Shown here one piece after another: positions 18,294-58,723 of a stretch of 64,000 nt of DNA (position 1 is its first letter; the number at the start of each line of letters is the position of its first letter). The notes below the pieces were generated by a model. That model did not search any database, was not told the origin of the DNA, and was given only the letters and a program-made list of their open reading frames with translations. The DNA is taken from positions 140,561,741 through 140,625,740 of the forward strand of contig CM041465.1 of NCBI GenBank assembly GCA_023213395.1, given 5' to 3'. Both the position numbers and the translations under genes were made by a program. Source of the DNA: Cycas panzhihuaensis (Eukaryota; Plantae; Cycadophyta).

Positions 18294-18311
18294 GGTGAGT
18301 TCTGGATACTT

Positions 18312-30356: not shown

Positions 30357-31024
30357 ATCGCAATTAATCTAAGTAATATAACCTTTCTTATATTTAATGG
30401 AAATGATTTTCAACTATGGAGTACAATAACGAAAGCATATTTTATTACAAATAACCTTTAAAAATATGTGAAAGATGGATATAAACCAAATATTAAAGAA
30501 GATATAAAAAAGGATAATGAAGCCCTAACACTATTATTTTGTACCATAAATGACAATGTATTCTCTAATGTTTATGAAATGACTACAACTAAATATGTAT
30601 GGGATACTTTAAAATTGATTTATGAGAGAGATACTTTAGAATTTAATATTACTAATTACATTAATGATGTTTTTCCTGTGAGGTAAATATTAGAGTAGGT
30701 GCATTTTGATGAAAAGACTAATATTACTTATATTAGCATAGATTTTAATAAAGTAATGACTCTAATATTGCATTTGGTGAGATGATATGTACCTTAGACT
30801 TGACTATATTAAAAGACAAAGATCAAGACAAAGCTACCTCTACTCATTCAAATCAAACTACACCTACTTGGAAGCCATTTAAACCATATAATATTAAAGA
30901 GACACACTTTATTGAAAAGATGATAAGGCAAGTTGTTAACTACATTAAGGATGATGATCAAGATAAAGGACAAGTATTCAAAGTCTTTTTCAAGTATATA
31001 TACCATAAGTTTAAGGAGAAATAA
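30357..31024 (+). pseudogene. A1 mini-gag ORF (gag N-terminus + linker + Copia RNase-H-tail-like end), decayed
   Basis: F.GNDFQLW...KAYFI, KKDNEALTLLFC...WDTLKLIY (Retrotran_gag_2-like), ending KVFFKYIYHKFKEK just before the PPT. Confidence 0.85.
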
Positions 31025-32110
31025 AAGATGATCGTAATGAACATTAAGGGGGAGTATGTTAGGATTAATGTTCCTCACCCTACTCCTACTTTAGAAACAT
31101 ATGAGTATACATATATTAATGGTAAGTTAGGTAAGTTTATTTTAATATTAAATTATGCATTATTTTATATTATTTTGAATCCTAAAGGTTGAGGAGATTT
31201 CCCTCCTCCCTCATAACTATATATCTTATGGGGTGCATAACCTTGGTGTTCTTCAATACCACCTACTTTAGAATATTTGTATACTCTTCAACTATGGCTT
31301 GAATACAATGATGTATTTTAAATAAATTTTTAATATAGATTGAGATCATTATTTATCTACTCTGCTATACTCTCTGTTATATTTTCAACATATACTTCAT
31401 TAATTGTACTTAAATATTTAACATAAATACCTTATAATTTTTTATATTTTATTATTGATTATTATAATTTCATATTAATGAATGCTTCATAGATCTCTTA
31501 CTTCATTATGTACTTTAATCTATTATCCTAGGTAATAAATTTTAACATGGCATCAAAGCTAAGGTAAAGTGTAGAGCATAGGTGAAGGAAGGTTCATGTG
31601 AGACATTAATTAGAGTTATATAATACAATATAAAGCTTAACAAAATAGATATCAAAATCCTCATATTTATACGGATGATCTTTGCCATCTAAAGATGATC
31701 CATAAATGTATTGTAAGAGCCAATATGAGCTACTAATAAGAGCTGGTATTGAATATCGATTTAAAGCCAAAAACCAAGTTATATTGATTATGTAGCCATG
31801 ATATAGAGGCATATTAAAGTGAAGTTAAAGTTATACATAGAATGAAAACTGACATAAGATTGACAAGTAATATTATTTATATGATGATTTATTATGGATA
31901 TTTATATGCATGTGGTATACCTATATATAACATGTAGGTTTATAAAGTACATCGAGAAGTTGATCATCCTATAAGAGTGAGTTGCAAAGTCTATTACTCT
32001 ATCAATATATGTGAAACATGTAGCATATATGTATGTGATATATGGAAGATTTAAAAAAGTAAGAAAGAAAGTCATATTAATAATAAGATAAATCCCATTG
32101 GTGGGGAAAA

Positions 32111-35124: not shown

Positions 35125-38100
35125 ATGGCTATAAGTTTTTATAACATGATCATTTCCAAGTTTGATAGATCAAATCTTTTGAATTGGAGTAGGAAGATGA
35201 GACCCATCCTCATTGCTAAGAATATATGGGATATTGTAAAGATAAGGTATATAGAAATTAGTCAAAATACCATTGAAGCAGAAAAACAACTATTTAAGGA
35301 ATATGTAAAGAAGTATAATGAAGTTTTAGCCTTTATTTTTTATGCCTTAGAAGACCATATATTTCCAAGAGTTAATGAGGCATCAAAGTCTAAAGAGGCA
35401 TGGGACATATTGTTGCTCATCTATGAAGGTGTAGCCTCATCTAACCTCCAAATATTGAAAAGCAAACTTGAAATATTAAGGATGATACCCAGTGAATCCA
35501 TCAATAAATTCATAATAAAGGTTCAAGACCTTGTGAATCAAATGAGATATCTTGGTGAGACCCTTATTAAACAAAGGGTTATTTAAATGAATCTTATGTA
35601 TGTTAGTGAAGTCAAAAGGTTTAAGATGATAGTTACAAGTATAGAAGTCTCTAAAGATATAAGCACATTAAAGATTGAATAATTGAGTGCCATGTTAATG
35701 GCTATTGAAAAGAAAAGAAACTTAAATGAATCCTTAGAATATGCCTTTATAACTAAGGTAAGAATCAAGTCTAATTTCCAAGTTGAAAGTGTAAGATCAA
35801 GTAACCAATCCCCAAGTGGGGAGAGATAGAAATCCTAGATAAGAGACATACCAAGAGAGTCAACCTAGATACTAAGCTCCCTATCAAAGGAATCAAGGAG
35901 TTAATCAAAGATATCCAAGTCAATAAAGATATCAAAGTCAAGAAAGACATTAAGAAGTAAACCAATTATATCAAAATTACCAAGCTCATATTAACTTTCA
36001 AAGACCTAACTTCAATTATCCAAGCAATAGACAAAGAGATAATCAGGGTCTATACTTGGAAAGGGGTAGAACACTCTCTATTGATTGAGGACACCTTAGA
36101 AGTAGGATTCTTAGCCAAAGAGGAACTGATCCAATTTAATCAGGGTCTATACTTGGAAAGGGGTAGAACACTCTCTATTGATTGAGGACACCTTAGAAGT
36201 AGGATTCTTAGCCAAAGAGGAACTGATCTAATTTGTTATATATTTTGCCACAAAGTTTTTCATACTAAAGATAGGTACTTTGCTAAGAATGGCCCTCCTA
36301 TAAGGGGTAGTGCTAATGCAATTATTAAAACTAGAGAGAATGAATGCCTATGTTTATCAAGCCTTTTTGCATATAGAAATAAAGAAGATTGTTGGTATAT
36401 AGACTCTAGTTGCTCCACACATATGACCCATGAAGAAGAGATATTTCAAACCATCGAAAGGTCTAGGAAGGGCACAATTATGTTTGGTGATGATACATCA
36501 CATGAATCTAGTGGAAGGAGAAAAATTATCATCATGATAGATTTAGATGAAAATAGATATCCTGATAATGTTCTCCATGATCTAGCTTTAAAGAAAAATC
36601 TTCTATCTGTGGGACAGATGATGGAATAGAACTATAAGGTTATATTTGACAATGATAATTCTACTATCAAAGATAAAAGGAAGAATAAAGTTGTTATTTC
36701 AAAAGGACAAATGACTAAAGATAGACTTTTCAAGTTAATTATAACTCCTTCAAATAACTATGCCTTAAAGATAACAATCAAATTAGATAGTGACATGTGG
36801 CATAAAAGATTTAACCACATAAACTATGGAAGCTTAGCTCTTATGAAGAGAATGATTATGGTTGAAGGACTACCATAAATTAAATCCAACATGGATATTT
36901 GTGAGGGGTGCCTCTTAGGGAAGTAACATAGAGAAAGTTTCCCTGATGGAAGCTATAGAGCAAAAGGGCCACTTTATTTAATCTACATAGATCTTTGTGG
37001 TCCAATGGACATCTCATCACTAGATAATGTAAAGTATTTCCTCATCTTTATCAATGATTATATAAGAAAAACATGAGTCTATTTTCTAAAATTCAAGGCA
37101 AATACTTTTCAATGCTTTGTAGACTTTAAAATCTTTATGGAGAAGCAAAGTGGATATAAGATACTTTCTCTAAGATCAGATAATAGAGGAGAGTTCATTT
37201 CTAATGAATTTAATACTTATTATATATATTATAGCGTTAGAAGGCAATACACAAACCCCTATACTCCATAACAAAATGGGATTGTTAAACATAAAAATTA
37301 CACCATAGTTGAGATGGTTGGGTGCATGCTTAAAGACAAGAGGTTTGGACATTAATTTTGGGCAGAAGTTGTCCACACTGCAGTTTACCTCCTAAGTAGG
37401 TATACCACCAAGGCCCTTAGGTGGATGATACTTGAAGAAGCATGGACTAGTTATAAACCTAGTATCCATCACTTGAGAATTATATAAGGTATATAACCCA
37501 AAAGAAAGAAAGGTTATGGTTAGTAGAGACATTGTATTTAAAGAAGATGACTATTATTAATCAGATTATTTCTAAGACAAAGGAAATAATGTTATAATAA
37601 ACTTTAACTCATCTCCTAGGTCTATATATGTATCACCTAGACAAGATTCAAGGTAAAATATTGGTGTATTAAGACCAAGTGATGAGGGAACCTACTCTGA
37701 ACCTCAAAGATTTCCTAAATAGGTTCAAAGATTCTATGACTTGGATAACATATTAGACAATAACTTTGATAGGAGATCTACTCATTCACATCTAATTAAT
37801 TTTGTCCTTATGAGTCGAGTAATGGAATCCCATGAGCCTCACACTTTTGAAGAGGCAAATACTCGTGATGAATGGAGATGAGCTATGAAAGAAGAATATA
37901 ATTCTATAGTAAAAAATGATACATGGAAAGTCATTGAATTTCCTCCTAACAAAACTTCCATTGGAACCAAATGGGTCTATAAGACCAAGTTCAGATTAGA
38001 TGGATCCATTAGCAAACATAAATCTAGACTTATTACAAAAGGATATGCACAAAGAGAAGGTATAGATTATAGTGAAACTTTTACTCCTATTACTCAGATA

Positions 38101-38300
38101 GAAATTGTTCATATGATATTGAGTCTAGCTACCCAAAAAGATTGGGATATTTATAAAATGAATATTAAAAGTACCTTTCTTAATGGCTACATTGAAGAGG
38201 AAATTTATGTTCAACAACTAAGAGGTTTTAAAGTTAGGGAGAAAGAAAATAAAGTGTATAAACTTAAAAAGACACTTTATGATTTAAACTAAGCACCTAG
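35125..38300 (+). pseudogene. Copia D gag-protease-integrase-RT (N-terminal part), decayed
   Basis: UBN2-type gag at 35125-35586; WYIDSSCSTHMT; KKNLLSVGQ; IDLCGPM; RSDNRGEF; FWAEVVHTAVYL; KNDTW...KWVYKTK...KGYAQREGIDY; FLNGYIEEEIYV. Confidence 0.95.
36040..36233 (+). repeat. 97-bp tandem duplication (one mismatch) in D gag
   Basis: 36040-36136 equals 36137-36233 except CCAATT/CTAATT. Confidence 0.95.
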
Positions 38301-40304
38301 TGTTAAAAGGTAATGTTTAATGTATACATCATATACACATACACTTCCTACCATTCACTTACTTCAAGATATGTGAGATGCATACATATTGATGTTATAC
38401 CACTATTAGATGATGTAAATACTCATTATATGTGATTGGTTACTCATGAGGTGATTATCACTATAGATTTGTACTCTCACCACTTGAGAACTTGAGAAAG
38501 GAGAGAAGAGAAAGATGTAATCTTTATGATCATAAGCAAAGCCCTAACTCCACCTTCTCCCATTGTTTTTCCCACACTGGGTTTTCCATGTATAAATCTT
38601 GGTGTCTTGTGGTGATGATTATGTTTGATGATTGTTTTAATTTACATGTTTGATGTTTCATACTCATGAGTTTATATGATTACATCTTCATATTTTTAAT
38701 ATGGTATCAGATCCATGCATGTATATTTTAACATGGTATCAGAGCCATGCATGCATATTTTAAGATGGTATCATAATAATATTGCATGTAAGCTACTATG
38801 GTAAGGTGGAGATCCTACTAATCTAGATTTAGGCCTATCAAGCCCATGACAAAAGCCATTGATGAAGAGTATTTTTTAATGAGCCAGTATATTCATATAC
38901 CAGTGACATGCATGATTATTTATAGGATAGATGAATCCAGTCAAGCTGCATACATGAAAGATACTATAGATACTAATAGTATGTTGATTTGGTATTTTAT
39001 GTAGATATTCATTTATGCATATTAGTGCCAGATTCTATAGAGCATGCAAGTATTCATAGTAGTCTATAGATATTATATTCAATCCATAAGTAAAGGCTCT
39101 TGAGAGTGTTCATTAATGGATTCTCTATCACTCATGGACCATTCTAGAGGCATTTACTAGTGTCTCACAATGAGATTCAATACCAGAATAAAGATAATCC
39201 ATCAGTACACATGAAACAGGAAGCGGCCATGTATAACACCCTATTGACAAGTATTTTAGTGACAATATAAAATGTATGCTTGAAACATATAACGACATGA
39301 TTATATCTAAGGTTGGCATTGAACGAGTGTTTATTTTATTATAGTATGAAGTTATTATGGTGGCATAAGATTATGGTAACTTGAGATGAAGTAATTATAG
39401 TATCATGTGATATGTTAAAGGCACCTTATGCATGTGATATATGATATAAGGTGAATTTTTTTATAGTGTTATTCAAACCCTAAGTCAAACATGGAGGATG
39501 ATCATGCCCAACACCCATGGTTTGATTAATGGCTACTCTATATAAGAGCTCTTGCCTTTATAACTAGCCATATAGAGAGAGTTTGATTCACTCTCATGTC
39601 ATGGGATCTCAGCCCATGCTACCTTCTCAACCCCATGCATGCCTTTTTTTATCATGGCCATCACATAAAAATGGAAGAGATGCTATAGCCACCTGGTTGT
39701 GATACCTACCATGGAGTTCACACAGTCTGTTAGGATTATATATAGCCATCCACATAGAAGGGCCATAGAAATGAAGTAACCCTTGCCTTTTCTCACATAC
39801 AAACAAACCTCAAATCTTCCTTTATTTTTCCTACCATAAATAAAGGAAGCAGGGCCATCAAAAGAACCTACCTCATAACCTATCATACAATTAATCGTAC
39901 ATATATATGGGGAGATAAAAACCTACATATAAGCATATAGATGCAGTTGGAGATCATCTACTTGGTCACAATCCTAATCATGCATAAATGGACTAGATGC
40001 CATTCAATTGGTACCATTGATATATATGCATGCCTTCAATCTAGAGAATGGCCTAGATTGTGTCTTGTCGTCCAACCTATTCATGATTATGCCCTGTAGA
40101 TAAAAATATTTTTTTGATGACCACCCATCTAGTACTTTGTCATAATGCTCAATAGAGACCATGCCATCACTGTAAACACATGCCCATTACCCTGCCATAA
40201 TACCATACATATCTATAGAGATCAATAACCTGCCAACGTTTAAGGAGAGCTAAAATAAAAATCGGGTGAATTGTATAGACATATTTGGTAAAGTGTGAGA
40301 CATA

Positions 40305-40736: not shown

Positions 40737-41294
40737 CAATTAAGTGTAGTCCAGCCCTAATGCAATAGATAGATTGGGTTATATATCTTAATTAGTATAT
40801 GCATTCATCACAGATCATAGAGATATAATCCACACAGAATAAAATTTTATTTTATGAATAATTATTTTGTAGGAAAAAATATTGCAGGAGAACAGGGCAT
40901 AACATAGAATAATCTTCAATAGATAAATACATCAATACAAATCTTCAATACATCAATGTTACAATGTAGCATACATATGAAAGTTTGAATCTTCAATCCA
41001 TTGTTGAAAGTGAGCAATAAAAATTTCCCAAATGAGGGTGGTGTCTAAAAATACCAGGGTTGCACACCCCTCAATATTTATAATTTGGAGGAGGAGGGAA
41101 ACTCCTCAACCCCTGAATTCAAAATAATAATAAAATAAAGTTAACTTAACTCAAATGAAACTAACTTAAATCAAAGTTAAACTTACCTTAACTTACCTCG
41201 ACATGTTGAGCACCACATATCTAAATTGAAGTTGATGAGGTGTATAATCCTGGTTGGAAAGGTGAGAGTGGAGTGATGATGATTAACTCCAACA

Positions 41295-41957
41295 TTCTCC
41301 CCCTTAATGTCATCACGAACACTTGTATCTTTTCCTTTAACTTATGGAACTTGTATTTGAAAAAAACTTTGAAATTCTAATCTTTATCTTTATCAACTAT
41401 TCTTATTCTTTCAGCAACACGTATCCTTGTACCATGAAGTGGTACAAAAAATCTATAAGTAAAATGCAAAAAATCTAGTGCAAATAAAGCTTGATTCAAG
41501 CAGGTATGTATAGTTACAACTTTGACTTTCACTTCTGAAATTTTAACTTTAACTATCATATCATTAGGTCTCTTTTCTGTCATATCAGATTCATTCTCCA
41601 TCATGTCATAGGATTCATTTTCATTCTCCCCCTCAAATGGAGGATCAAATCCTTGTGTAAAAAGTTGGTCCTGCATTTGATCTGCATCTTCATTAGTTTT
41701 GTCAACATGATCTACTTGTTCTATTACCTATCTTACATGCTCAACAAAAATATCATCAAATACAAGGATGGTATCTCCCCCATAAGTGGAAATTAAAATA
41801 TCCCAAATAGATTTAGAAGTAGTTAATTCATAAACCTTTAAAAAAACATCATCATTCATAGTGCAAAATAATAATCCTAACGCTTCATTATCCTTTCTAA
41901 TGTTTTCCTTAATACTAACATCATAGTCATCTTGCAAATATTTCCATAAACCATGTG
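41295..41957 (-). pseudogene. B1 mini-gag ORF, main part (its N-terminus is at 47648-47720, split off by B2)
   Basis: Rejoined MKNYFI/THGLWKYLQDDY. ORFs 41728-41937 and 41377-41676 are in one frame. Ends KVFFKYKFHKLKEKIQVFVMTLRG. Confidence 0.88.
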
Positions 41958-42275
41958 TAATATGAAGGAAAATATACTTGCACGAGAACAGGGTAGAACA
42001 TATATCAAATAACTATAAACCAATATTGCATCAATACATCAATGTATCACAATCACAATAGTATAAACCATGAAAGCATTATTGTTTAATCCATTGTAGC
42101 AGAAAAAAGTGATACAAATTTCTCATTTGAGGGCGGTGTCTAAAGACACCAGGGTTGTACACCCCATTATATAAATAGTTTTGGGGGAGGAGGGAAACTC
42201 CTCAACCCTTGAATTCAAATTAATAATAAAATAATGTAACTTAACTCAAATGAAACTAACTCAACTTACCTTAAC

Positions 42276-43124
42276 TTACCTTGACATATTGAGCATCACA
42301 TGTTTAAATTGAGGTGCACAATCCTGGTAGGTAAGAGGGAGTTGAGTGATGACATTACACTCCAACATTCTCCCCCTTAATGTCAGCACGAACACTTGTA
42401 TCTTTTCCTTGAATTTATGGAACTGGTGCTTGAAAAAAACTTTAAAATTTGGATCTTGTTCTTTATCAACTATTCTCACCCTTATAGCCACATATGTCTC
42501 TTTATCATGGAATGATGTAGAAAAACTATAAGTAGATGAAACTTGATTCAAATATAAATGAATAACTGTAATTTTGACTTTGTCAACTGGAACATTGAGA
42601 ATGCTTTGAACTTGAACTTTTGTAGTCTTTATGCTTTGAACAACTACCATATCATCAGGTTTATTCTTTGTCATACCATCAGATTCATTCTTCATTATGT
42701 CATAAGATTCATCTTCATTCTCCCCCTCGAATAGAGGATCAGGTACTTAGGTAGCAAGTTGGTCCTGTATTTGATATGAATCCTTATGGGTGTTATCGTT
42801 ATGCTTCACCTGTTCTGTCACCTGTCTCACATGCTCATCAAAAATATCATCAAATACATGGAGGGTATCCTCCCCATAAATGGAAATCAATAAATCCCAA
42901 ACAGGCTTAGATGTTGTCAAATCACATACCTTTGAAAAAATTTTATCATTCATAGTACAAAATAATAAACCTGATGCTTCATTATCCTTTTAAAAAATTT
43001 CTTTAATGCTAAGGTCACATTCATGTTGTAAATACTTCCACAAATCATGTTCAATAAAATAAGTTTGCATGGTGTCATACTATAGTGAAAAGTTATGTCC
43101 ATCGAAAATGGGAAATTGTGCCAT
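42276..43124 (-). pseudogene. B2 mini-gag ORF, 283 codons with 3 premature stops, reading into the 3' LTR
   Basis: MAQFPIFDGHNFSL*YDTMQTYFIEHDLWKYL...KDNEASGLLFCTMNDKIFSKV...WDLLISIYG, then an acidic linker, then KVFFKHQFHKFKEKIQVFVLTLRGRML...MSR*. Confidence 0.88.
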
Positions 43125-44599
43125 TTTATCAAAAAACTTTAGTATGTAAAATGAATATGCTTTAACAAGTTAAAATATCAATAAATCAATGAATATATAT
43201 GATTTCAAATGCCCTTTAGAAAGTTAGTCAACTAGGCATAATAAGGAAATAATCTTTTTTTTTTTAAATGATAAAAAAACTTTTCAATATATGTACGCCT
43301 TTCAAATAAACTTTGAGATAAAGTGAATATAAGAGCATATATAAAGATCTTTTGCCTTGATAATAATGTAAAAAGCTGAAAATGAAATATATAAAAGTAT
43401 TTTTCACTTTGAAAAAATAACAATATAAAGAAATTTTTAATAAAAAATTAATATGCTTCTTAAAAGAAAGTTTGAATGATAACCTTAGGTTTGAGGGATT
43501 CAAAAGTATATTAAATGATATCAAAATGATATAAAACTTTACAAGTATAAAGATAAAAAAAATATGAACCCAACGGAACTAACCGTTCTGAAAATGGGTT
43601 CCTAGAAATCAAGTTTTAGTGAATCAAAGGTACAGGCCCCATTTTGAGGCTAAACAGGAGCAAGGGGTCAAAATGCTAACAAAATACTTATAAAATGTTA
43701 TAAGGTGATCAAATATTGTTTATAAAATTGTTCAATATACTTTCAATTGAAATTTGTTTTTTAAATATATTTAAAATGTGTAAAAATAGTAGATTTGAGG
43801 CAATAAAGTATCTCTACTTTGAATGATTTGAAAGTCAGGAAAAATATGTCAAAATGTATAAAACATTATGTAAAATCGAAGAAAATTGAGTCAGCTTCCC
43901 AACAAAATTGGCGGAATTGAAATCTAAAACAAAATAAAAAAGTTATAGCAAAAATGGTAATAAGTGTCTTTATGTAAACTGTTAAGAAACAGGCTAAAAA
44001 CAACTAAATTCTCACTTTTAGCAATTAAAATACTAATGAAAATGAATTCAAAAAATTAAAACAAGAAGTGGATATTAAAGTTTGTAGAACGTAGATTGCT
44101 ATAGAAGAAATCCAAGCAAAAACAATTTACCAGTAATAAATCACAGCTAGTTCTAAAAATGATTTTGTTAAAAGTGTGAAAAAGACTGAAATTTTGAATG
44201 TCTGACGTTAAATTGGCTGAAACAGGGTCAAATCGGCACCAAATTGGTCATATGACCAGTCAAAATTAGTGTACAAAAACTTTTTGATCTAGTGGAGGTG
44301 GTTTCGTCAGAAACCAATGCTCCAGTGAAGAGTTATGGAAAAAAAATGCCAATAACCCTATAAAAGATAAAAAATTAAAAAAATAAATAAAAAGAAAACG
44401 TTTATAAAAAGGTGAAAAACCCCTTTAGAGATAAGTTACGATCATAAGAGTATGAATATGACCAAGAACAGTAAATAGAAGGAGCTAAATCCCTTTAAAC
44501 ACATAGATCACATGGATTTAAAAATTTATATAATAAATTTTAATTTTTTTTAAACTTTGTATTATTAAAACTATATTAAAACTATATAAGAAAAATGAA

Positions 44600-46340
44600 G
44601 TCAGTTGTATTAAATGGCAATGCCACTGACAAATATTCAACAACAATATTCAACATTAATGGCTATGCCGTCTGCTGATATAATATATATATAATATAAA
44701 AGATGCTCAAACGCCAGAACCTAATAATGGCTATGCCACCGTCCGTCGATATAAAAAGATGAAAAACGATCATCCGCCATAAAAAACTAAAAGCTGAAAA
44801 CACTCAAACTGCGTGCCAACGGCAATGGAAACACACAACGCTGAAACAGAGATGGGAAGACGAAGGAGATAACGCCAGCGCCAATGCCAATATATATATA
44901 TAATAGCAGCGCTGTAGGGTGCCAATAACGTACGTGTAGGCTGTTTTCTGCATGCCAAACCTGCGTAGAGGTGCTGAGAGCTACGCACCAATAACCATTG
45001 TGAGCCACTGTACTCCCAATGCAGATCGCCAGCTGCTAATGCCAATGATAATAAAAGTATAGAAGCGAAGCGTTGCACCCAATGCAAGACGACTGTTCAA
45101 TCGCATCTGCCAATGATATGCAACGTGAGACGGCTGTTCAAGCATCACTACGGGCAAACACAGTTATTAACCCAATGCAATACGGGATACCAAGGCACCC
45201 AACACGCAATCAAATGCACAAATAGAGTTGCAGAACAGGGAAGGAGACGCCAAGGGATATCAGACGCCAACGGAGGAAACTACTAATCTCTCTGATTATG
45301 TAATAAGTGAAGAAACTGGTGCGGCAAAGGATGGCATTAGTTGACTTATATTATTAGTCACAGATGTTCTATCTCTGTATTAATCCTATTGGCGCTATGT
45401 ATATGCGAGACAAAAGATGATGGTAAGGACACAATAAATTTTGAATCTGTATCTGAAACTAAGGATGAAAGCTTGAAAGCAGGAGAGGATGCAACTGTTC
45501 AATGGAATGGATTCAGACACCAATGGAGGAGGAGCCGGATAAGTTCCAAATGTTTAATGGAAATGTTGATTTAAGAAAGAAGAAAAAAAAAAATCACACA
45601 AATACGCTTACATAAATGCACCAAGCAACTATTTGATCCCAATGTCTTTAATGCTTGGATGGTCCTCTTTTTTGTTATGCCGAAAAGACTAGTTCTTGCT
45701 AAGGGCCAGCGTCCCCCTTCAAATGGAACAGTTCTATTGAATGTTTAGAACAATAATCTGAACGGTAGTAAACAGGGTCTTGGAATATATATGTATATAT
45801 TAGAAATGATAAAAGATAATCTGGCAACTAGGTAAATAAAGTTATTTCAGCTGCCAACCAAGTAACTAATGCAGTAAGGATGGCTACAGTGAAAGATATT
45901 AAGAGACAAATGGATGGCAACGTGCCTATTCCAGAGGTATCAGTGGTCAGGTTTATGTAAGATATTATAATCAATAGGAATTTGATAAGCTTAAATAAAA
46001 ATACTTCAAATTGTGCTCTTATCGTTTAGCATCATTGCATATAAATGCATCTATATGATGTATTGTTTTGAATTTTGTCTCTATACAATAATAATAAAAT
46101 TGGGTTTTAGAAAATATTTAAAAGAAAATATATAGATATTTATACAAAAACATGAGAAATGTTGAGTTTTTTTTCTGTCTACTCTTGGTAAGACAAGTTG
46201 AGATAGTCTGGCCTAGAATATATGCCAGGTCTTGTAAAAAAATATCTTAGTGGAAATAAGGAAAGCTATAAATAAAGATATAATGAAAGGCAAGCTTTCT
46301 TTCTATTGATTCAATAGAGCACAAATCAACAAGAAATTTC
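44600..46340 (+). other. Variable cargo slot of B2: CpG-rich GCCAA-repeat block followed by exon-like fragments
   Basis: Lies between blocks conserved with B1 (up to 44248 and from about 46345). No visible similarity to the B1 slot. Confidence 0.65.
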
Positions 46341-48887
46341 TAAATATTTTGACAAACAGAAATAAGTCAAGCAAATATCATACATGTAGGTGTATCTGAA
46401 ATCTTTTTAAATGTATCTTGCAGTAGATATATTAGAAATATATATGTAAATCTGAAAAATGTAATTAAAAAAACCTCATAATGTAGCTGATTTGCAGACT
46501 TATAGCAGGTTAACCCTTACATATGAGATCTTCAAACTTTCAAGTGTATTCTTCAACAGATAGATCTGTTGCATATACCTCTTCGGATGGCTGAAAATGC
46601 CCCAAAAGTTACAGATATGCAACTGCTATCTTTTATAGATTAAAATATAGCTTGTAGCTGAAAAAAAGACTTTTATGAATCTACACAAATTTGTGAAATA
46701 ACACTGAAATATACTTGTTATATCATAAAAAATAACCGAATAATGAGTGAATCTATTGAAAAATATAATAAATCTGTTTAAAAACTTGTAGAAAATATCA
46801 CTAAATGATGAAGAATCGCAGATCTGAAGTGAGACCTAGTAGATCTACAAAAATATTATGTAAATGTTATAGATCTGACCTAAGTATAGTAGATTTATAG
46901 CCAAAAATATTATAAATCTGAACAAATATACTAGAAAATAGTGAAAAAACTTGCTGAAATAAGCAGATCTATAGTAAAAAATAGCAGACCTGAAGTAACA
47001 AATTGTAGATCTTTAAAGAAAACTTGATAACTTTTGTATGCAGCTAATGCTCTTTTGCAAATCTGCGAAAAATATCAAATAAGTAGACAAAACCTTGTAA
47101 ACTGTCAAAATATATAATAAATCTGTAGATCTGAAGAGAAAATAACTCAAATATGAGAATAAAAACTTGAATGTATATAACTTGTTGCTAAAAATCCTAC
47201 GTAGATCTGCACAAATCTTCACAGATTAGTAATCGCCTGCTCTGATACCAAATAAAGGAAAATATACTTGCAGGAGAACAGGGCAGAACATATATCAAAT
47301 AACCATAAACCAATATTGCATCAATACATCAATGTATCACAATCACAATAGTATAAACCATGAAAGCATTATTATTCAATCCATTATAGCAGAAAAGAGT
47401 AATACAAATTTCTTATATGAGGGTGGTGTCTAAAGACACTAGGGTTGTATACCCCATTATATAAATAGTTTTGAGGGAGGAGGGAAACTCCTCAACCCCT
47501 GAATTCAAATTAATAATAAAATAATGTAACTTAACTCAAATGAAACTAACTCAACTTACCTTAACATGTTGAGCATCACATGTCTAAATTGAGGTACACA
47601 ATCCTGGTAGGTAAGAGGGAGTTGAGTGATGACATTACACTCTAACACAATAAAATAGTTTTTCATAACCTTATGCCATTCTGAAAAATTTTGCCCATCA
47701 AATATAGGTAATTGTGCCATGTTATAAAAAACTTTAAAACATATAAAGTATACTTTTACTAAATCAAAAGAGTCAATAAATGAATAATGTTTGATATGAT
47801 GTCAAATATCCTCTTTAAAAAAAAAGTAATGCCCTTTGAAAATGAATCAATTGAATATAACCTTTATAGGTACAATAAGAAAATAATTGTTGCAATAATG
47901 ATAAATGCTTTCAATATATGTATGCCTTTGAAATAATCTTTGATATACTTTTTAGATATAATTTGAGATAAAATGAATATAAAAATAAGTTTGAATGTAA
48001 TAAAGATCCTTTAAGTATGCAAATTTGAAATAAACTTTAATGATAAAAAAGAATAAAATTTTCAACCTTTTGATTTTTTCAAATGTAGGGGTATGTCAAA
48101 TGCTTAAGTTTAACAACTTCAAAAGTATACTGAACGATATCAGAATAAGGTGGAACTTCACCATCATGAAGGTAAACAAAATATGAATCCAAGGGAATTG
48201 ACCATTTTGAAAACAGATTTGTATAAGTCAAATTTTGAATGACCAAATTTGCAGGCCTTGATTTGAGGCATAACAGGAGTAGGGGGCTCAAAATTATATA
48301 AAAATACTAATAAAATACTTGTAAAATGCTATAATGTAATCAAATATTATTTTTAAGATTACAAAATATACTTTCAATTGAGAAAAATTAAAAAATTATA
48401 TATAAAAAGTGTAAATATGGCAAGTTTAAAGTAATAAAGTCCCTTTACGTTGAGTGATTTGAAAAATAGTAAAAATATATTAAAATGTATAAAAAAAAAA
48501 ACTATTTCATATCAAAGATAATTGAGCCAGCTTCCCAATAAAACTGACAGAACTGAATTTGGATGCCAAACAGAGAAGTTATAGCAGAAATGCCAACATG
48601 TACCTTTATGGTAAAATGTTAAGAAAAATGTTAAAAACCACTAAAATGCCACTTTCGGTGATTAAAATAGTGGTCAAAATGAATTCTTAAAAATAAAATA
48701 AAAGATGGATAATGAATTTTGTTGAATATAGATCATTGTAGAACAAATCCAGACAGAAAATAATTTCCTGGTAATAAAATATAATGAGTTCAAAAAGTGA
48801 TTTTGTAAAAAGTTTAAAAAAGGCTGAAAAAATGACTGATTTAACTTTAAATCAACTGAAATGGGGTCAAATCAGCACCAAATTGGT

Positions 48888-50570
48888 TCACATCTTTAGG
48901 AACTACAAATTGTCCAACGATCTTCGGCTGAGAATTAGATTTCCTTAATTAATATAGATTTGGATAGGCTTGTTGGGAATATTGATTGGGTTCATGAGAC
49001 CAAAGATCATAGAAAATTTCTCGTAATGTGTTGTTACTTTGTAGCAAAGTGTCCTTAACAAGTTATAGCTTGAAAGAGGCCCTTTTGATCACTGAAGGAT
49101 TCATGGCTATTGAAGTAAATTTTACAAATACTAGAGTCGTTACATCACGAGCTCTTGCCCTGCCCTTGTCTTTTCAAAGAACTCAAGTATATTTTGTTGT
49201 TCTCAATCTCATCGAGATACCATAGTGGGTTTTGTTTAAGAAGGAGAGCAAACATCATGGTTCAATATGTATGTATTATTATTGATATTACTATTATGTT
49301 TTCTTCACAGTAATTTACAACGAGGTTGTATATTCTCCTTTTTTGGTTAAGCAATGGTTGTAGGATAACACATACTGCGTTTGATTACACTGCTGTGTTG
49401 TGCATGTAATAACACTAGATTGCATGCATGTCATATAAGATTAAATGCTCTACTCAGTATTTGCAACCATTAAATAGACTTTTTTATAGAATGATATGCA
49501 TCCTATTTGTTTCTATTCACAGAATGAAATTCTTGTTTGTTTCTTGAATTGTCTGCTCAGCAAGGAGATGCTCTTGCTAGAGAGCTAGTATTTGATGATA
49601 TGATTTTGGTTTCAGTCAATGTTAGAGCAGCATGAGAATGAGATTTTGAACCAGTTTTCTATAACAAAAAAATGGCAGACTTTATCGCCGCTTCGAATAA
49701 AAAAGTTAAGTGTTGTTTTCTCCCTCTAAGAGGAAAAATCTACTGATTTCATAAAAGTTGTTTCGATGATCTTTTGGCCGTTTTGAAAGTTGAATGCATT
49801 GTACTGAAAAGTTACAGTCTAAGAACTGTGGTAGAAATTTGACTGTTGCTAGAATGAGCTATGCACCTTGTAAGTACTTAGGCTACTCTCCATAATCCTT
49901 GAGGATGTTGGTGCCTTTTTAACAGCAGAACCTCACAACGTGTATAGAATGCAAAATGCTAATAGACTAGATAAATCAACACCACTTTTATTGTGGTTTT
50001 TGTTTGAAAAAAAAATAAATGTTACCATGCTTTGTAAATGGATGTTGTTGTTGCTAATATTGAATTTCAGTTCTCAAGCTAGGGTTTGGATGATTTTTGC
50101 TCACATGAAGTAATAATATCTTGAGTAGTTTGATCTTTAGATACTTATCCTTTTGAAGATATGGCTCAACAATTGGGCCTATACTTAAAATCACACATAT
50201 AACAAAGGGAAAAAGAGGTTCTTGAGGTAAATATGGCTCTGCTACCAAATTACTTAGCAGATCTCAATTAGGGTCATGGATCTACACAACGTGAGATTCA
50301 AGTATCAATTGATACTGAATATACAGTGAAGAAAAAAAATATTTTAGAAAATGTTAAGAACGATTGCTCTTCAAAAATGTAGTTATGGAATCAAATCAAA
50401 CGAATGGCAAGTTAAAGTAGGATTCTACTAGGTTTGGAGGATATAACTCAAGTCAGAAGTTGGAAATACTGATGAGTAATGGTTAAAGAGTTGTACTTCA
50501 ACCCAGATTTGTATGAGTATAGGCCTTTCAATGTGAATACTTCAAATAAACCAAATCTTTTCTTTCCCCC
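48888..50570 (+). other. Variable cargo slot of B1: array of exon-like fragments with short GT...AG stubs
   Basis: B1/B2 homology ends at CACCAAATTGGT (48887) and resumes at about 50578. Repeated YAG / GTA-type boundaries flank short, mostly open frames. Confidence 0.6.
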
Positions 50571-53500
50571 TTTTTAATATATTGACAAAAAATATATCTG
50601 GCAAATAAGATGCATGTATATGTATTTGAGATATTTTCAAATATATTGTAGATATATTAGAAATATGTGTTCAAAACTAAAACAGTAACTAAAGAACCTG
50701 GAAGATGTAGCTGTAGTAGATTTGTAGTTGAAAATAGGCTTCAAAGCTTCTAGTAGACAGATCTGCAGTATATACTTCTTCAGAAACCTAAATATGTTCC
50801 AAAGATTATAGATCTGTAAAAAGACTTAAGAATGTAGTCAAAATATGTGATGAAAAAATATAGATCTGAAAAGAAATATAGCAGATCTGAACTAAATGTT
50901 GCAGATCTGAAATAACTATGCCAGAAAATAGTGTAATACTTCCTGAAATAAGCAGATCCGAAGTAAAAACCAGTAGATCTAAAAGAATATTTAATATTTG
51001 AGTAGAATAAACTAGGAAACTATCAAATATTTGATACAAAGAGCAGATCTAAAAAATATAAGCCAGATCTATAGAAAACTATGGTAGATTTAAAGTAAAA
51101 ATTATAGATCTTGAAGAAAAAGCCATATGAATCTTACATGCAACTGATCTCCTTTACAGATCTGCGAAAAATATTAGATAAAATAGATAAATATACTTGA
51201 AAAACTATCAAATATATGATCAAAATTGTAGATCTGAAAAAATATATATATCAAATATGATAAAAAGCTTGAATACAAATAAATTGTTGCTGAAATACGT
51301 TGATCTTCTTTGTAGATCTAGAAATATAACAAACAATCTGCATAAATCTGAAAAAATCTGAAGTATATTTGTTATACTAGGAAATAGCTCAATAATAATT
51401 AAAACTTGATGAAAAACTAGAGGAAATTTACTGAAAAAAAATTACAGAAAATAAATATCACTGATATTATTTACTTGTGTGAAAATCTGCCTCAAAATCT
51501 TCTTGCTTTTTCGAAAAACTTCATAGATCAGCAATCGCCTACTCTAATACCAAATGTAGGAAAAATAATAGAGCAAAACTATGCTCTGATACCAAATGTA
51601 GGAACAAATATTGTAGGAGAATAGGGCAGAACATAGAATAATATTCAATAGATCAATACATTAATATAAATCTTCAATACATCAATGTTGCAATGTAGCA
51701 TAAACATGAGAGCTTGAATCTTCAATCCATTGTTGAAAGTGAGCAATACAATTTTCTCAAATGAGGGTAGTATCTAAAAACACCAGGGTTGTACACCCCT
51801 CAATATTTATAATTTGGGGGAGGAGGGAAACTCCTCAACCCTTGAATTCAAAATAATAATAAAATAAAGTTAACTTAACTCAAATGAAACTAACTTAAAT
51901 CAAAGTTAAACTTACCTTAACATGTTAAGTATCACATATCTACATTGAAGTTGATGAGGTATACAATCTTGGTTGAAAAGGTGGGAGTGGAGTGATGGTG
52001 ATTAACTCTAACATATTTTTTGAAACTTAAAAAATTTTGTATTTGTTTTCAAAAATTTAATTAAATTGGATAGTTTTTTGAAATCTGGTTTTCAACCCCT
52101 TCATATTGGTAGGTGGTCATATGGAGAGTGTATATGGCTAGGGGCTAACTTATTAGGGACCAAACTTTAAATGCCAATAAATTGAATTGGATAGTTTTTT
52201 ATTTTTTAAAAATTATATTTAAAATTTAATAAAATTTTGATTCCATTACCAATTTCTTAAGGATCACACACTTTTATATGACATACTAGTACATTTTGCT
52301 CCATAACTTCTCATAGGAGTATGAGAATCAGACGTCGTCTGTTGTGTTGGAAAGCTGACTTTAAGAAAGTCATAACGAGTGGTCACACAACCTACTTTGG
52401 ATAGAAGAAGATAGAGAAATTTTAGGGTAAAGTTGATGCAAAGGCGTAAAACATCATTTTGGATGAGTTTTGTGTCAATTTTTAGAAAAATTTCACTCAA
52501 TCCTAATGTTTTTCATGGCTCCAAACATGGTGGTGACCTTATTTTTGAGAAATGGTAGATGATTGTTATAGTTTGGTTTAAAATCAAACATTTTGAGGCC
52601 CATTTATGAAAATTTGAGGCCTATTTCAGTTGAAAATTTACATTAAGTGAAATATTTGATGGATTTATCATATGAGACATCCTTGATATGCTAAACTTTC
52701 ATTTCCCCCTTCACAACATCATATTTGGTTTTGTGGATGATAAAAGCCCTAAACAAACATATAGATTACTTAGATATTAAAACAATTTATGTTATTTAAT
52801 TAGATGACAAATACAATTACCTTGTTACAGTTAACTTACCATTGCCAAGAAGGTTGGCTTGGTCTTAGAGTAGATTATTCAAGATGATCTAGTTGTCGAC
52901 TTAATCTAGCTAATGAAACTTTGAAAAAGTCCTATAAACAATTTAGAGAGATGATGAACCATGTATCTGAAGTGATTTCCTAGTGAACTTGTAATTACAA
53001 TGGTTGGTCACCCATGTATTTCGATAGATGGATTTTATTTTATATGGACTTAGATATCATTTTTCTTGATTTGATGGACAACTTAATATAAATTAAAAAT
53101 AGGCACCACACAGGTGAAGATATGAAGATGTACGCAAAACACGTTATATATAAGTTTATGGAGATAACATATAGTTATAGGTCTTGATAGATTATAGATG
53201 ATTTTGGTGATTAATGTAGAAGCTTTGCTCGAGCCTTATGGTGTGATGAGTTCATCCTAATATATAGGATACAGATGTCAACATACAAGATGAAGACATG
53301 AAGACTCAAGATCAAGATTCAAGGATATTAAACATTATGGGGGGGGTGTTAAAACCTAATGTTTAATGTATACATGATGTACAAATATACTTCCTACCAT
53401 TCACCTACTTCAAGATATGTGAGATGCATGCATATCGATGTTATACCACTATTGGATGATGTAAAGGCTCATTATATATGATAGTCTACTCATGAGGTGA

Positions 53501-54146: not shown

Positions 54147-55482
54147 TGTTAGGTTTAATATTCCTCATCCCACTTCCACCTTAGAAATATATGAGTGCAC
54201 ACATGTTAATGGTAAGTTAGATGCATTTATTTTAATGTTAAGCTATGCATTATTTTATATTATTTTAAATTCTAGAGGTTAAGGAGGTTTCCCTCCTCCC
54301 TCATAACTATATGTTCTATGGGGTTCTAAAGAACGGTGTTCTTTAACACCACCTACTTTGGAACATTTGTATACTCTTCAACTATGGCTTCAATACAATG
54401 ATATATTTCGAATGTATTTTTAATATGGATTGAGATCAATGTTTACCTACTCTGCTCTACTCTATGATACATTTCCAACATTTAGTATTAGAGAACATGA
54501 TTCAACCCATGACAAGTTTATTTACTAATATTTCAATTTATACTATAGTTTTTAATATTATTTCTTATATAGTTTTGATAAATAATTCATGTTTTTATTC
54601 ATACAAGCTTATTAATCATGTTTTTCTCCAAGTATTTATTATAAAATTGAGCACGCTCAGCACAATAATAGTTTAGTATAGTTATTTTCTAAATTTAATT
54701 GATAAAATATTATGTTTTCTATTATTTTACATCATATGTTTAAAGGTTAGGTAAGGTTTTATGATTTCAATAAGCAGGTGCGAACTCTACATTACTCAGA
54801 ATCTTAGCATATTACTATCCGTTTAAATCTTCAGTGAACCAGCTTTGCAACTCATTCAATGGATTTGAAAATCACTACCCCTATGAGGAGATATCTCTCT
54901 GAGAATCTCAGTGGCTCAATTTTTGTAGTGAAACCCCATTGCTCCTTCCTCACGTGCTTATTTTTTCTCATTTTATTTGTTATTTTACTGATTAGACTCA
55001 GGTGCAGGCCTCTCAAGGTCTATGTAAAGTTGTCTTAGGGTTATTTGACATATTTTATAGGTTGTATCACCTCCTATTATATATACAAACTCCCTAGACT
55101 CTAAATCTTAATTCTCAGCATAAGAGTAAGTGTTCAACATGAAATTTGATAGGAGCCTTTCCATTAGAAATATCGAGAAGCTCCTCCATTTTCATCAAGA
55201 TCCGTTGCCTATGTCAGGAGTACAAGCCACTTGAAATCCCCCTACGTGGATGTACTTACTACTCAGGTATTTTCTTAATTTTACATATTTTTTACAAATA
55301 TTTTTTCTTTTTTTTTTTTTTTAATCTATGGAATGGTCCAGTACCAGGAGAACCCTCAGTGATTGAATAGAATCTATTAGGATTGATTTTTATGATAAAA
55401 TCTAATCAGGATCTCTGGTTTCTCACTGTCCATCTATCCTCTATTCTATGCCTTGTTTCTCCTTTGTTTAATTAGTTTCTGA

Positions 55483-55558
55483 ATACACACACACACACAT
55501 ACATACACACATACACATACACACATACACACACACATACACACACACACACACACAT
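55483..55558. repeat. (CA/TA)n compound microsatellite
   Basis: Direct observation. Confidence 0.95.
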
Positions 55559-57689
55559 ATATAAAATCAATCCTCGTGTTGTGGTACCCTTCTCCTATGG
55601 TCAAATTAGTCTGATTTGGATTATTTTTTATGTCTTTCTGACCGAATTCACTCTCTATGCATCGCGTAGTTAATGAGTAATTATTTTTTATTAAAATATT
55701 TTTTTTTAAAGGTTTATGAGAAATTAAATTAAATTTAATAAAACTTTGATTATATGTATGATTTTGGGCTTACCCCCTCCATCAGTTGGCCCCCAGTCAC
55801 ATATACCTCCATATAATCGTGCTTTAATGTTAAAAGGGGCAGATTTCAAACGTTAATAAACTCCTTTTTATATTTTTCATAATAAAAGACCATTAATAAT
55901 ATTCTATAATCCTTTGAGGTCATTTAGACCCCTTGGGCACTTAGTGGTTGGTCATATTGGGTCTATATATGACTAGCAACCTAACTCCAAAGAGGCTTAT
56001 TATATATTTCTTTTAAAATTTTTATTTTATTAATACTCAAAGAGGTCTAGTGGATTTTTTCACTATAACTCTACACTTGAGTGTTAGTTGCTTACAAAGT
56101 TAGACTTGTTGGATTCATATTTTAGTGCTCTTTAGCTTAGTACCATCTTTTATTCAATTTGAGTTTTATTTCAGTAGTGTTTAACTTAATCAAAGCTGAT
56201 CTTCCCTTTCAGCACTTATTTCACTTACCAAAAGGGGGTTTGTTCATTGTTTCTTCAATAACTTAATTATTATAGCTCTATTTTTCAAACTATAAGAAGC
56301 AACGAAAAGAATTTTTAGATCTCTACATATTATAATTAGTTTTATCTTATTTTTATAGTATTTTATAAGTCTTTAAAGCTCCTCAAGTCAAGGCTCTAGT
56401 TTAGCTCTAATAGGCACATTTTGTAATATTTTTGAGTAAATCTTTCATCTTAATTAAATCCATTTGAATATTATTTACTACTAATTAGTTGTTTGATGAT
56501 ATTTATTGGTTTTTATAAGATTACAATTTGATTTACAACTTTTAGCATCAATTTTAGCTTCTTGAGGATCAAGAGGTCTACTTGGATCAATACATCAAAT
56601 TAGTACTAGTTACCTTAATCACTTATTTTATTTTACACTTTCATTTATATTTAGAATAATTTTTTGAGATAATTTTAAATATTATATCTTCTTAAAATTT
56701 TCAAAGTATACCTAATTTATTTCTAAATTTACAAAGGAACTTCTTGTCATTTGATTCACATTAGTACAAAAAATATTATTTCTACATCTCAAAGTCATTT
56801 ATTTAGTTAAAAAAGGCATTGCAAAGGGTATAATCACAAGTTATTTTACTTATTTTTATGCTTCTAAGTTCACTTAATATTCTAAGACTTAAAAGCATTT
56901 AAATATTTAAAGCATTATTGATTTATTACATCGCTTAGAGAGGATGCATATAATATATTTATTTACAAAGAACATCTTAATTTGAAAGATATTAGATTGC
57001 ATTTGATCATTCAAGGAACATATTTTTTCATCATATTTTGATTGATTGAACACACATTTATTTGAAAATTTATATTTCAGGCTTCTTGATTTACTAGTAG
57101 AAGGTGTATTTCAGTTGCTTTAAAGCCATTGCATTTGAAAGTTAAAAAGTGCATAAAAGTGCATAACTATAAACTTATTCTTTTGAACTTTTAAGAATTT
57201 CAAGGTACACTCTATTAAACATTTTATTTTTAAGATATATATATTCATTATTTCTTAAAAGGAATATAGTTTGAATATTATTTTCAATCCAAGAGGGTAT
57301 TTGCCTTTCATTCTTTAAAGAATCTCTTAGCTGATTGATTAAGAAGGCATTTGAACATTAAAATAAATTGAAGTTTCATTTATTTGAATTCTCTTTTTAG
57401 TACCTTATTATTCAATCAAATTTTTGGAAAAGAAGTACATTTAGTTTACTTTGAAAATGAAGCTTGTTATTTTATTTTGCATATTATTTTCAAAGGACCA
57501 TTTATCATTTTCAATTCAAAAGGATATTTGATTACATAAAGAAACATTTATCTCACCTCATTTTTTCATACTTTGAATAGTGAAATTTATTCTAAAGTAT
57601 CATTTATTATTTGTTCATTTAAGGATTACTCTTCTTATTTGTTCATTAAAAATCATTTTTTTTTATCATATACTAAAATCTTTTATACA

Positions 57690-58358
57690 ATGACAATGAA
57701 TCCAAGTAATATAATCTTTTCTATATTTGACAGAAATGATTTTCAGCTATAAAGAATAATAATGAAAGCATACTTTATTGCAAATGACCTTTAAAAGTAT
57801 GTAAAAGATGGATATGTACCAAATATTAAAGAAGATATGAAAAAGGACAATGAAGCCCTAATACTATTATTTTATAGAATAGATGATAATGTATTCTCTA
57901 ATGTTTATGAAATGACCACAACCAAATCTATACAGGATACTTTAGAATTGATTTATGGGGGAGATACCTTGGAATTTAATATTACTAATTATATTAATGA
58001 TGTTTTTCCTGTGAGGCAGATGTTAGAGTAGGTGCATTTTGATGAAAAGACTAATGTTACTTATACTAATATAGATTTCAATAAAAGTAATGACTCTAAT
58101 GTTGTATTTGGTGAGATAATATGTACCTTAGACTTGACTAAAGTAAAAGAAAAATATCAAGATAAAGCTACCTCTACTCATTCAAATCAAGCTATGCCTA
58201 CTTGGAAGCCATTTAAACCACATAATATTAAAAATGCATACTTTGCTGAAAGAATGATAAGGCAAGTTGTTGACTACATCAAGGATGATGATCAAGCTAA
58301 AGGATAAGTATTTAAAGTCCTTTTCAAGTATAGGTACCACAAGTTCAAGGAGAAATAA
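57690..58358 (+). pseudogene. A2 mini-gag ORF, decayed
   Basis: MTMNPSNIIFSIFDRNDFQL*...KKDNEALILLFY...KVLFKYRYHKFKEK*. Confidence 0.85.
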
Positions 58359-58723
58359 AAGATGATCATGATGAACATTAAGGGGCAGTATGTTAGGGTT
58401 AATATTTCTCACCCCACTCCTACCTTAGAAATATGCGAGTACACACATGTTAACGGTAAGTTAAGTGAGTTTATTTTAATATTAAGTTATGCATTACTTT
58501 ATATTATTTTAAATGTTGAAGCTTGAGGAGGTTTCCCTCCTCCATCACAATTATATATTCTATGGGTTTTAAACATTGATGTTCTTTAACACCACCTACT
58601 TTGGAACATTTGTATACTCTTCAACTATGTCTTCAATACAATGATATATTTCAAATGTATTTTTAATATAGATTGAGATCAATGTTTACATGCTCCACTC
58701 TGCTCTCTATTATATTTCCAACA

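What the first reader, a model, noticed from the sequence alone, without database searches (positions are those of the whole stretch)
48888..50570. LTR element B1 carries an antisense array of exon-like fragments joined by 22-42 nt intron stubs
Seen: between two blocks conserved with B2, the plus strand (antisense to the element) repeatedly reads pyrimidine-AG | short frame | GT. Examples: 48900-49022 (41 codons, phase 0-0, one TAG); stub 49023-49044 (22 nt); 49045-49186 (open, KVSLTSYSLKEALLITEGF...FQRTQ); stubs 49269-49310, 49325-49363, 49535-49560 and 49588-49615 around 12-89 nt pieces; GTAAGT at 49870; 50141-50226 (TYPFEDMAQQLGLYLKSHI*QREKEVLE|GTAAAT). Known: plant introns this short are generally not spliceable. 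Multi-gene capture with intron flanks is typical of Pack-MULEs and Helitrons, whereas LTR capture usually involves spliced mRNA. Inference: a 'Pack-LTR' slot that serially collects host exons with a few flanking intron bases. Antisense orientation would protect them from splicing, and the slot could yield siRNAs matching many host genes. GT/AG are frequent in AT-rich DNA, so chance is not excluded, and I could not name the source genes.
Basis: partly seen in the sequence, partly recalled or inferred. Interest (0 to 1): 0.8.

Follow-up and report, generated by a model that had tools for sequence, protein, structure and literature searches.

The report
Jumping gene carrying reversed mRNA scraps
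A crippled plant retrotransposon carries a 1.7-kb patchwork of pieces from at least four likely host RNAs, one of them a spliced piece of an RNA helicase message lying backwards; the pieces were likely picked up during reverse transcription, a known kind of gene capture, and the proposed mini-introns between them are not supported.

Summary
The letters and the nested LTR elements are as described, but the 'intron stubs' are not real. Splice-signal density is no higher than in shuffles, no contig is spliced at any stub, and three named sites lie inside continuous host matches. The slot is still captured host sequence. Four contigs of a probable RNA run from a relative match separate pieces (48893-49158, 49592-49741, 49978-50097, 50152-50328); three are 2.3-2.8 kb and go on unlike the element on both sides. 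Piece 50153-50450 comes from a DHX36-like DExH RNA helicase. It lacks two introns found in 32 of 37 land-plant-type loci, so it came from spliced mRNA, and it keeps a rare 4-base splice variant. It lies antisense to the element. Two junctions show 4- and 9-base overlaps. Best reading: repeated template switching onto host RNAs in a gag-only Copia derivative, as in maize Bs1, soybean GmaRetroS15 and Sireviruses. New member of a known kind; no function shown.

The parts
40868..52013 (-). Element B1: non-autonomous Copia-derived LTR retrotransposon, interrupted by B2
   Evidence: TG...CA ends, 5-bp target duplication TATTT on both sides, LTRs differ at 33 of 418 aligned letters
51597..52013 (-). 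5' LTR of B1
   Evidence: self-match with 40868-41294
51583..51594 (-). Primer binding site, initiator-Met type (label recalled)
   Evidence: sequence directly inside the LTR
50576..51582 (-). Backbone shared in patches with B2; no coding domain
50451..50575 (.). Slot piece of unknown source
   Evidence: no Pfam hit; one contig has 39 extra letters at 50465
50153..50450 (+). Piece of a spliced DExH (DHX36-like) RNA helicase mRNA, across two exon junctions (near 50187-50190 and 50295/50296), with 4 extra bases at the first; antisense to B1
   Evidence: phmmer E 3.4e-6 and 9.6e-5; names and domains; 204 of 301 letters alike to spliced contig L007; intron positions; probable RNA contig 50152-50328
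49978..50127 (.). Piece of a 2758-nt probable RNA contig; non-coding (UTR-like, inferred)
   Evidence: match 49978-50097 with 8 differences; its loose end still resembles the window to about 50127 by eye; stops in all six frames
49742..49977 (.). Slot piece of unknown source
   Evidence: no Pfam hit; crossed by DNA contigs
49592..49741 (+). Piece of a 2654-nt probable RNA contig; likely coding on the + strand; gene not named
   Evidence: 15 differences; the two in-frame TGA at 49633 and 49639 read CGA in the contig; stop counts alone do not fix the strand
49347..49520 (.). Piece matching a 985-nt DNA contig that goes on unlike the element on both sides; source type unknown
   Evidence: contigs of three DNA runs stop matching at 49520
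49150..49254 (.). Piece from a further, several-copy source; right edge not known; may read on the minus strand
   Evidence: loose ends before 49150 in 6 and 5 contigs of two DNA runs; a contig bridges 49042-49254; no family hit
49150..49158 (.). 9-base overlap between two captured pieces
   Evidence: one source ends at 49158, the next begins at 49150
48884..49158 (+). Piece of a 2284-nt probable RNA contig; likely coding on the + strand; gene not named
   Evidence: match 48893-49158, 24 differences, 1 gap, through the 22-nt stub; same flanks in DNA run X1; 2 stops in 87 codons on +, at least 5 in any minus frame
48884..48887 (.). 4-base overlap between element backbone and the first captured piece
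   Evidence: backbone continuation seen in B2 and in loose ends at 48887; host flank
47653..48887 (-). Backbone shared with B2; no coding domain
41963..47647 (-). Element B2, a related element nested inside B1, with a different slot (44249-46342)
   Evidence: target duplication TAATA/CAATA, LTRs differ at 20 of 395 letters
41770..41955 (-). Copia gag remnant of B1
   Evidence: PF14223 positions 8-77 of 172, E 1.3e-7
41295..41310 (-). Polypurine tract
   Evidence: sequence directly inside the LTR
40868..41294 (-). 3' LTR of B1

Best explanation
B1 is a gag-only Copia-derived LTR element whose 1.7-kb slot is a mosaic of 120-300 nt pieces of at least four likely host RNAs, one shown to be spliced DExH helicase mRNA lying antisense to the element, likely added one after another when a borrowed reverse transcriptase switched templates at short shared stretches, and likely decaying as passengers. 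Shown: element structure and strand; several unrelated sources; loss of two introns in the helicase piece; its antisense orientation; edges inside exons. Inferred: template switching (two measurable junctions, 4 and 9 bases); stepwise addition; a switch during second-strand synthesis, or onto an antisense copy, as the cause of the reversed orientation; no function.
For: Four contigs of run X24 (RNA is the tool's guess; 139,402 records, 49 million letters, 4 contigs laid against 345-500 in each of three DNA runs) match four separate pieces, 713 of the 1441 letters laid, at 7-12% difference; the three long ones leave the element on both sides. The piece at 50140-50373 hits two plant proteins among 1.84 billion, DExH helicases nearest DHX36. 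Of 72 fetched loci, 37 have the land-plant motif; 32 of these 37 have an intron on both sides of the short exon, 3 show a break at the first place only and 2 at neither. B1 runs over both places and aligns to the spliced contig L007 for 301 letters, with no gap at either junction; B1, L007 and L003 all have 4 extra bases at the first junction, where 31 of 32 genomic loci have a second AG 4 bases upstream. Overlaps of 4 and 9 bases at two junctions; a 9-base match has chance near 1e-5 at this composition. No poly(A) end or target duplication at piece edges. Contigs from relatives bridge the 49150-49158 junction, so the mosaic was copied after assembly. Published model: microsimilarity of median 6 bp, partial mRNAs, multi-gene chimeras (PMC5131818, passages).
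Against: Simple switching during first-strand synthesis gives sense pieces, and one review says transduced pieces are usually sense (PMC7264820, part 1 of 3); the route to antisense is not shown here. Only 2 junctions could be measured, and local alignment ends can creep. Only 1 of at least 6 sources is named; three word-index searches, Pfam and PDB named no other. RNA origin is shown for that one piece only. X24 is from a relative and not on record as RNA. About 40% of the slot has no source. The piece from 49150 may read on the minus strand. No genome was held, so no full second copy was aligned.
Confidence: 0.68

Rival explanations
1. Pieces of cDNA or RNA were patched into integrated copies during double-strand-break repair by microhomology, and the element then amplified them. 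Either orientation would arise.
For: Explains antisense orientation, short pieces and short overlaps equally well. Maize Sireviruses show no orientation bias (10.1101/777037, passages).
Against: Needs many repair events at one internal spot of one family; the spliced piece still needs a reverse transcriptase.
Confidence: 0.13
2. The mosaic was built in sense inside another retroelement or as a chimeric retrocopy, and entered B1 as one reversed block.
For: All three pieces whose strand can be judged point the same way, as one reversed block would give.
Against: No poly(A), target duplication or terminal repeat at the slot ends; no match to other elements in the window; other contigs carry different sequence upstream of 49150 and 50135, which fits stepwise change.
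Confidence: 0.12
3. One reading: genomic exons captured with a few flanking intron bases, Pack-MULE or Helitron style.
For: T-rich stretches in 49255-49591 have acceptor-like sites (scores 2.0-2.3 bits) and one piece matched only DNA contigs.
Against: No excess of splice signals; three named sites lie inside host matches; two conserved introns are missing from the helicase piece; the exon upstream of the first intron has no break near 50140.
Confidence: 0.04
4. The slot is one contiguous ordinary repeat and all resemblance to genes is chance.
For: Pfam, Rfam and PDB searches of the slot itself were blank.
Against: Four separate contig matches at 88-93% and a helicase match at DNA level, E 3e-33 pairwise.
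Confidence: 0.02

Closest known systems
Maize Bs1 (known here through PMC13317346 section 4, and PMC5131818 passages; originals not read)
   Same: LTR element with pieces of three host genes
   Different: Bs1 pieces form a transcribed, translated chimeric gene; B1 pieces are antisense, broken by stops, and come from more sources
Soybean TRIM GmaRetroS15 and related TRIMs (PMC4717578, section 13)
   Same: non-autonomous, 5-bp target duplication, exon-only pieces of three genes including a 5' UTR and a multi-exon piece without introns
   Different: TRIMs there are 1.2-1.4 kb; B1 is about 5.5 kb without B2 and keeps a gag remnant
LTR-mediated retrocopies, 'pseudo-LTR retrotransposons' (Tan et al. 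2016, PMC5131818, passages)
   Same: partial mRNAs, short shared stretches at junctions, multi-gene chimeras, both LTRs kept, further copying
   Different: animals; mostly transcribed in the parent gene's sense
Gene-capturing maize Sireviruses (10.1101/777037, passages)
   Same: Copia-type; 15% of capturing elements hold two or more fragments; no orientation bias, so antisense cargo is known; donor genes map more siRNAs
   Different: only 3% of Sireviruses capture; the dense run of six or more pieces in 1.7 kb was not described in the passages read; the supplement (Figure S11c) was not seen
Gene fragment capture by gymnosperm LTR elements (PMC13477047, passages and section 12)
   Same: capture by Copia and Gypsy elements is common; 13.68% of capturing elements hold two or more fragments
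   Different: section 12 gives no orientation, junction or splice-form analysis; supplements not seen. That this window is from a gymnosperm is only suggested by the best protein hit
Gag-only non-autonomous LTR elements, TR-GAG-like (PMC13570524, passages)
   Same: LTRs, PBS, PPT, gag but no pol, modular internal regions
   Different: B1 keeps only part of gag, close to the PPT, behind a long 5' region that holds the cargo

Membership tests
Non-autonomous LTR retrotransposon (Copia-derived) | Two LTRs with TG...CA ends and a 5-bp target duplication | tested here: met
Non-autonomous LTR retrotransposon (Copia-derived) | PBS and PPT next to the LTRs | tested here: met
   51583-51594 and 41295-41310 on the minus strand; tRNA type recalled
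Non-autonomous LTR retrotransposon (Copia-derived) | No pol domains; Copia-type remnant | tested here: met
   PF14223 only; minus-strand frames of the backbone and six frames of the slot scanned
TR-GAG | Retains gag (and sometimes protease) as its coding content | tested here: inconclusive
   only profile positions 8-77 of 172, cut by the B2 insertion and broken by a stop further on
LTR-mediated retrocopy (Tan 2016; Bs1-like cargo) | Cargo lacks the donor gene's introns | tested here: met
   helicase piece only: two introns present in 32 of 37 land-plant-type loci are absent; the host's own gene was not seen
LTR-mediated retrocopy (Tan 2016; Bs1-like cargo) | Partial mRNAs, several parent genes | tested here: met
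   four separate contigs, matches internal to the three long ones
LTR-mediated retrocopy (Tan 2016; Bs1-like cargo) | Short shared stretches at fusion points | tested here: inconclusive
   4 and 9 bases at the 2 junctions where both flanks were printed; the others could not be read
LTR-mediated retrocopy (Tan 2016; Bs1-like cargo) | Cargo replaces internal element sequence and is copied further | tested here: met
   most loose ends at 48887 continue with B2-type backbone; contigs of relatives bridge cargo junctions
Pack-MULE or Helitron-type capture | Terminal inverted repeats or Helitron ends around the cargo | tested here: not met
   longest inverted arms 17 nt, none pairing the two slot ends; Helitron ends were not searched for specifically
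Pack-MULE or Helitron-type capture | Cargo keeps introns or intron flanks | tested here: not met
   unassigned pieces not testable
siRNA-producing cargo that affects donor genes (Muyle et al.) | 21-24 nt RNAs and methylation shared with donor genes | not testable with these tools
   no small RNA run was offered

The most novel reading that the evidence does not exclude
The family has a fixed acquisition site next to the backbone at 48887 where new host mRNA pieces are added one at a time and always antisense, so that each element transcript is an ordered antisense record of host messages (including off-frame splice forms) that feeds small RNAs against several host genes or blunts silencing of the element.
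Probability: 0.1. Interest if true: 0.75.

Novelty: new member of a known kind. Interest (0 to 1): 0.42.

Why it matters
It is a clear, dense case of RNA-borne gene capture in a large plant genome, with junctions readable at base level. It shows that such elements sample the real RNA pool, including an off-frame splice form of a helicase message, so their slots are a fossil record of old transcripts. If antisense polarity holds across the family, it would be a direct test of how LTR elements take up reversed cargo, which the simple first-strand switching model does not explain, and of small-RNA cross-talk with donor genes.

Tried and rejected
Whole-genome search: no genome held. Fetching family copies by a backbone pattern from metagenome contigs: 0 matches. 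No RNA holder listed for the slot itself; not used as evidence on expression. Parts of the slot without cover in X24 are not used as evidence. Summed contig depth is higher over 49968-50330 than over 48890-49967 and over 50120-50616 than over 48913-50119; this would fit growth from the 5' LTR side, but the tool says contig depth cannot rank parts, so it is a lead only; differences to the contigs (22 of 177 against 47 of 536) do not separate old from young pieces (Fisher p 0.19). Naming the other donors failed: word-index searches (26, 41 and 1 candidates, none scored; one search missed the helicase that one search found, so these blanks are weak), Pfam 9, 39, 63, PDB 20-22, 40, 64, Rfam 79. 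Weak PDB rows (UGGT E 1.1; CTP synthase E 0.85) were rejected as chance. The Atlas could not read the window peptide. A two-frame alignment was not colinear and was not used. A loose end at 50295 first looked like an intron start but fits a 7-base deletion in a copy. A 37-nt match at 49325-49361 in one contig may be chance. Paper searches gave no description of this family or of an all-antisense multi-gene LTR slot; one search gave nothing on the tandem acceptor (listings only; the locus name used was recalled). The library lacks most subscription papers.

Full report
Setting. The window is AT-rich plant DNA made of nested retroelements. No genome is held for it. B1 runs from 40868 to 52013 on the minus strand, with TG...CA ends, a TATTT target duplication, LTRs differing at 33 of 418 letters, a primer binding site at 51583-51594 and a polypurine tract at 41295-41310. 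B2 (41963-47647, LTRs differing at 20 of 395) is inserted in it. Both keep only a Copia gag remnant. The slot 48888-50575 lies in B1's long 5' region, upstream of gag, between blocks shared with B2, and matches nothing else in the window.

The intron-stub pattern. The letters are there. They are not enriched. With recalled plant splice matrices the plus strand has 10 donors against 13.9 in 300 shuffles, 20 acceptors against 18.7, and 2 short donor-acceptor pairs against 3.1; stricter thresholds give 0 pairs. Four of the five named stubs have donors scoring below zero, and 2 of 8 named donors have the usual G before GT. In 8 runs laid on the slot no contig is joined across a stub.

What the slot is. 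Twenty of 24 listed runs, from 9 studies, hold part of the slot, none more than a quarter of its words, so all comparisons are with relatives. Run X24 (RNA by the tool's guess; 139,402 records; 4 contigs laid, against 345, 422 and 500 in three DNA runs) gave four matches: 48893-49158 in a 2284-nt contig (24 differences, 1 gap), 49592-49741 in a 2654-nt contig (15 differences), 49978-50097 in a 2758-nt contig (8 differences) and 50152-50328 in a 559-nt contig (22 differences). The three long contigs go on unlike the element on both sides. They cover 713 of the 1441 letters laid. The first match runs through the 22-nt stub with more than 100 letters on each side, and DNA run X1 shows the same flanks at both ends, so this piece begins and ends inside continuous gene sequence. 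The second begins inside the 28-nt stub. DNA contigs point to two more sources: one starting at 49150 (6 and 5 contigs in two runs) and one at 49347-49520 (three runs stop at 49520). About 40% of the slot has no source.

The named piece. phmmer of one plus frame against 1.84 billion proteins gave 2 hits, both to 50140-50373: a Taxus chinensis protein (E 3.4e-6) and an Asimina triloba protein (E 9.6e-5). They are DExH RNA helicases nearest DHX36 (the Atlas's first structural row is a cluster with a DEXH1_3_5 N-terminal family). A scan of metagenome contigs gave 72 loci. Thirty-five lack the land-plant motif and were set aside. Of the other 37, 32 have an intron on both sides of the short conserved exon, 3 show a break at the first place only, 2 at neither. 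B1 runs over both places. It aligns with the spliced contig L007 (a full helicase frame) over 50153-50450, 204 of 301 letters, without a gap at either junction. B1, L007 and L003 all have 4 extra bases at the first junction, and 31 of the 32 genomic loci have a second AG 4 bases upstream of the main acceptor. So the piece was copied from spliced RNA, and from an off-frame splice form. The host's own gene was not seen; that it has both introns is inferred from their presence across these loci. The exon upstream has no break near 50140, so that AG is not this gene's acceptor.

Orientation. The helicase piece is on the plus strand, antisense to B1 (shown). The piece at 48893-49158 has 2 stops in 87 codons in its best plus reading and at least 5 in any minus reading (inferred). 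In 49592-49741 both in-frame TGA read CGA in the contig, but stop counts alone do not fix the strand (likely). Three of three has chance 1 in 8. The piece from 49150 may read on the minus strand and is unnamed.

Junctions. At the left edge the backbone and the host flank share 4 bases (48884-48887). The first two pieces overlap by 9 bases (49150-49158), chance near 1e-5, though alignment ends can creep. No poly(A) end or target duplication marks any edge. Contigs of relatives bridge the 9-base junction, so the mosaic has been copied since it formed.

Mechanism. Most likely: the element's RNA is packaged by an autonomous Copia partner along with host RNAs; reverse transcriptase jumps at short shared stretches onto a host RNA and back; repeated over many cycles this replaces the dispensable slot with a patchwork (model of PMC5131818, passages). 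Reversed pieces would arise if the jump happens during second-strand synthesis or onto an antisense copy; this step is inference. Stops and frame breaks in all coding pieces fit passenger decay. Repair-type patching with cDNA and transfer of a reversed block from another element remain open.

Comparison. Multi-gene, intron-free cargo is known in Bs1 (PMC13317346 section 4) and the TRIM GmaRetroS15 (PMC4717578 section 13). One review calls transduced pieces usually sense (PMC7264820 part 1 of 3), but maize Sireviruses show no orientation bias and 15% of capturing ones hold two or more fragments (10.1101/777037 passages; supplement not seen). In gymnosperms capture is common and 13.68% of capturing elements hold two or more fragments (PMC13477047 section 12; supplements not seen). 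Three earlier notes of this scan report antisense cargo in animal elements (unchecked). B1 is therefore a new member of a known kind. Its points of interest are the density of pieces, the shared orientation and the captured splice variant.

Verdict. Observation partly confirmed; interpretation partly supported; interest 0.42.

Noticed in passing
L004-L069 (32 genomic loci); L003, L007; window 50187-50190: The land-plant DExH helicase gene has a tandem acceptor: a second AG 4 bases upstream in 31 of 32 genomic loci, without a pyrimidine tract. Two spliced contigs and the B1 piece use it, which shifts the frame. A conserved route to nonsense-mediated decay is a possible reading; not found in one paper search.
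   Followed up: partly
window 44249-46342: B2 has its own, unrelated slot with protein-like plus-strand frames (for example 45844-45957); no Pfam or PDB name. May be further antisense cargo.
   Followed up: partly
window 26574-31391 and 54147-58723: Two plus-strand gag-only elements with related LTRs share 2.7 kb of backbone but have different variable regions (about 27250-28390 and 54800-55690), in the same place relative to PBS and gag as the B slot; no Pfam or PDB name.
   Followed up: partly
window 50465: One contig of a relative has 39 extra letters here; the stretch 50451-50575 may be another coding piece.
   Followed up: no
window 49325-49361: A 37-nt match in one long DNA contig overlaps the 49347-49520 piece by 15 bases; chance not excluded.
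   Followed up: no
window 16259-22350: Decayed LINE on the plus strand: DUF4283, endonuclease, reverse transcriptase, RNase H.
   Followed up: no
window 35119-38763: Decayed Copia gag-pol on the plus strand, holding a near-perfect palindrome at 36040-36234.
   Followed up: no
window 1-2021 and 13110-15283: A 1.9-kb direct repeat pair at 77% identity, likely LTRs of an older, larger element.
   Followed up: no
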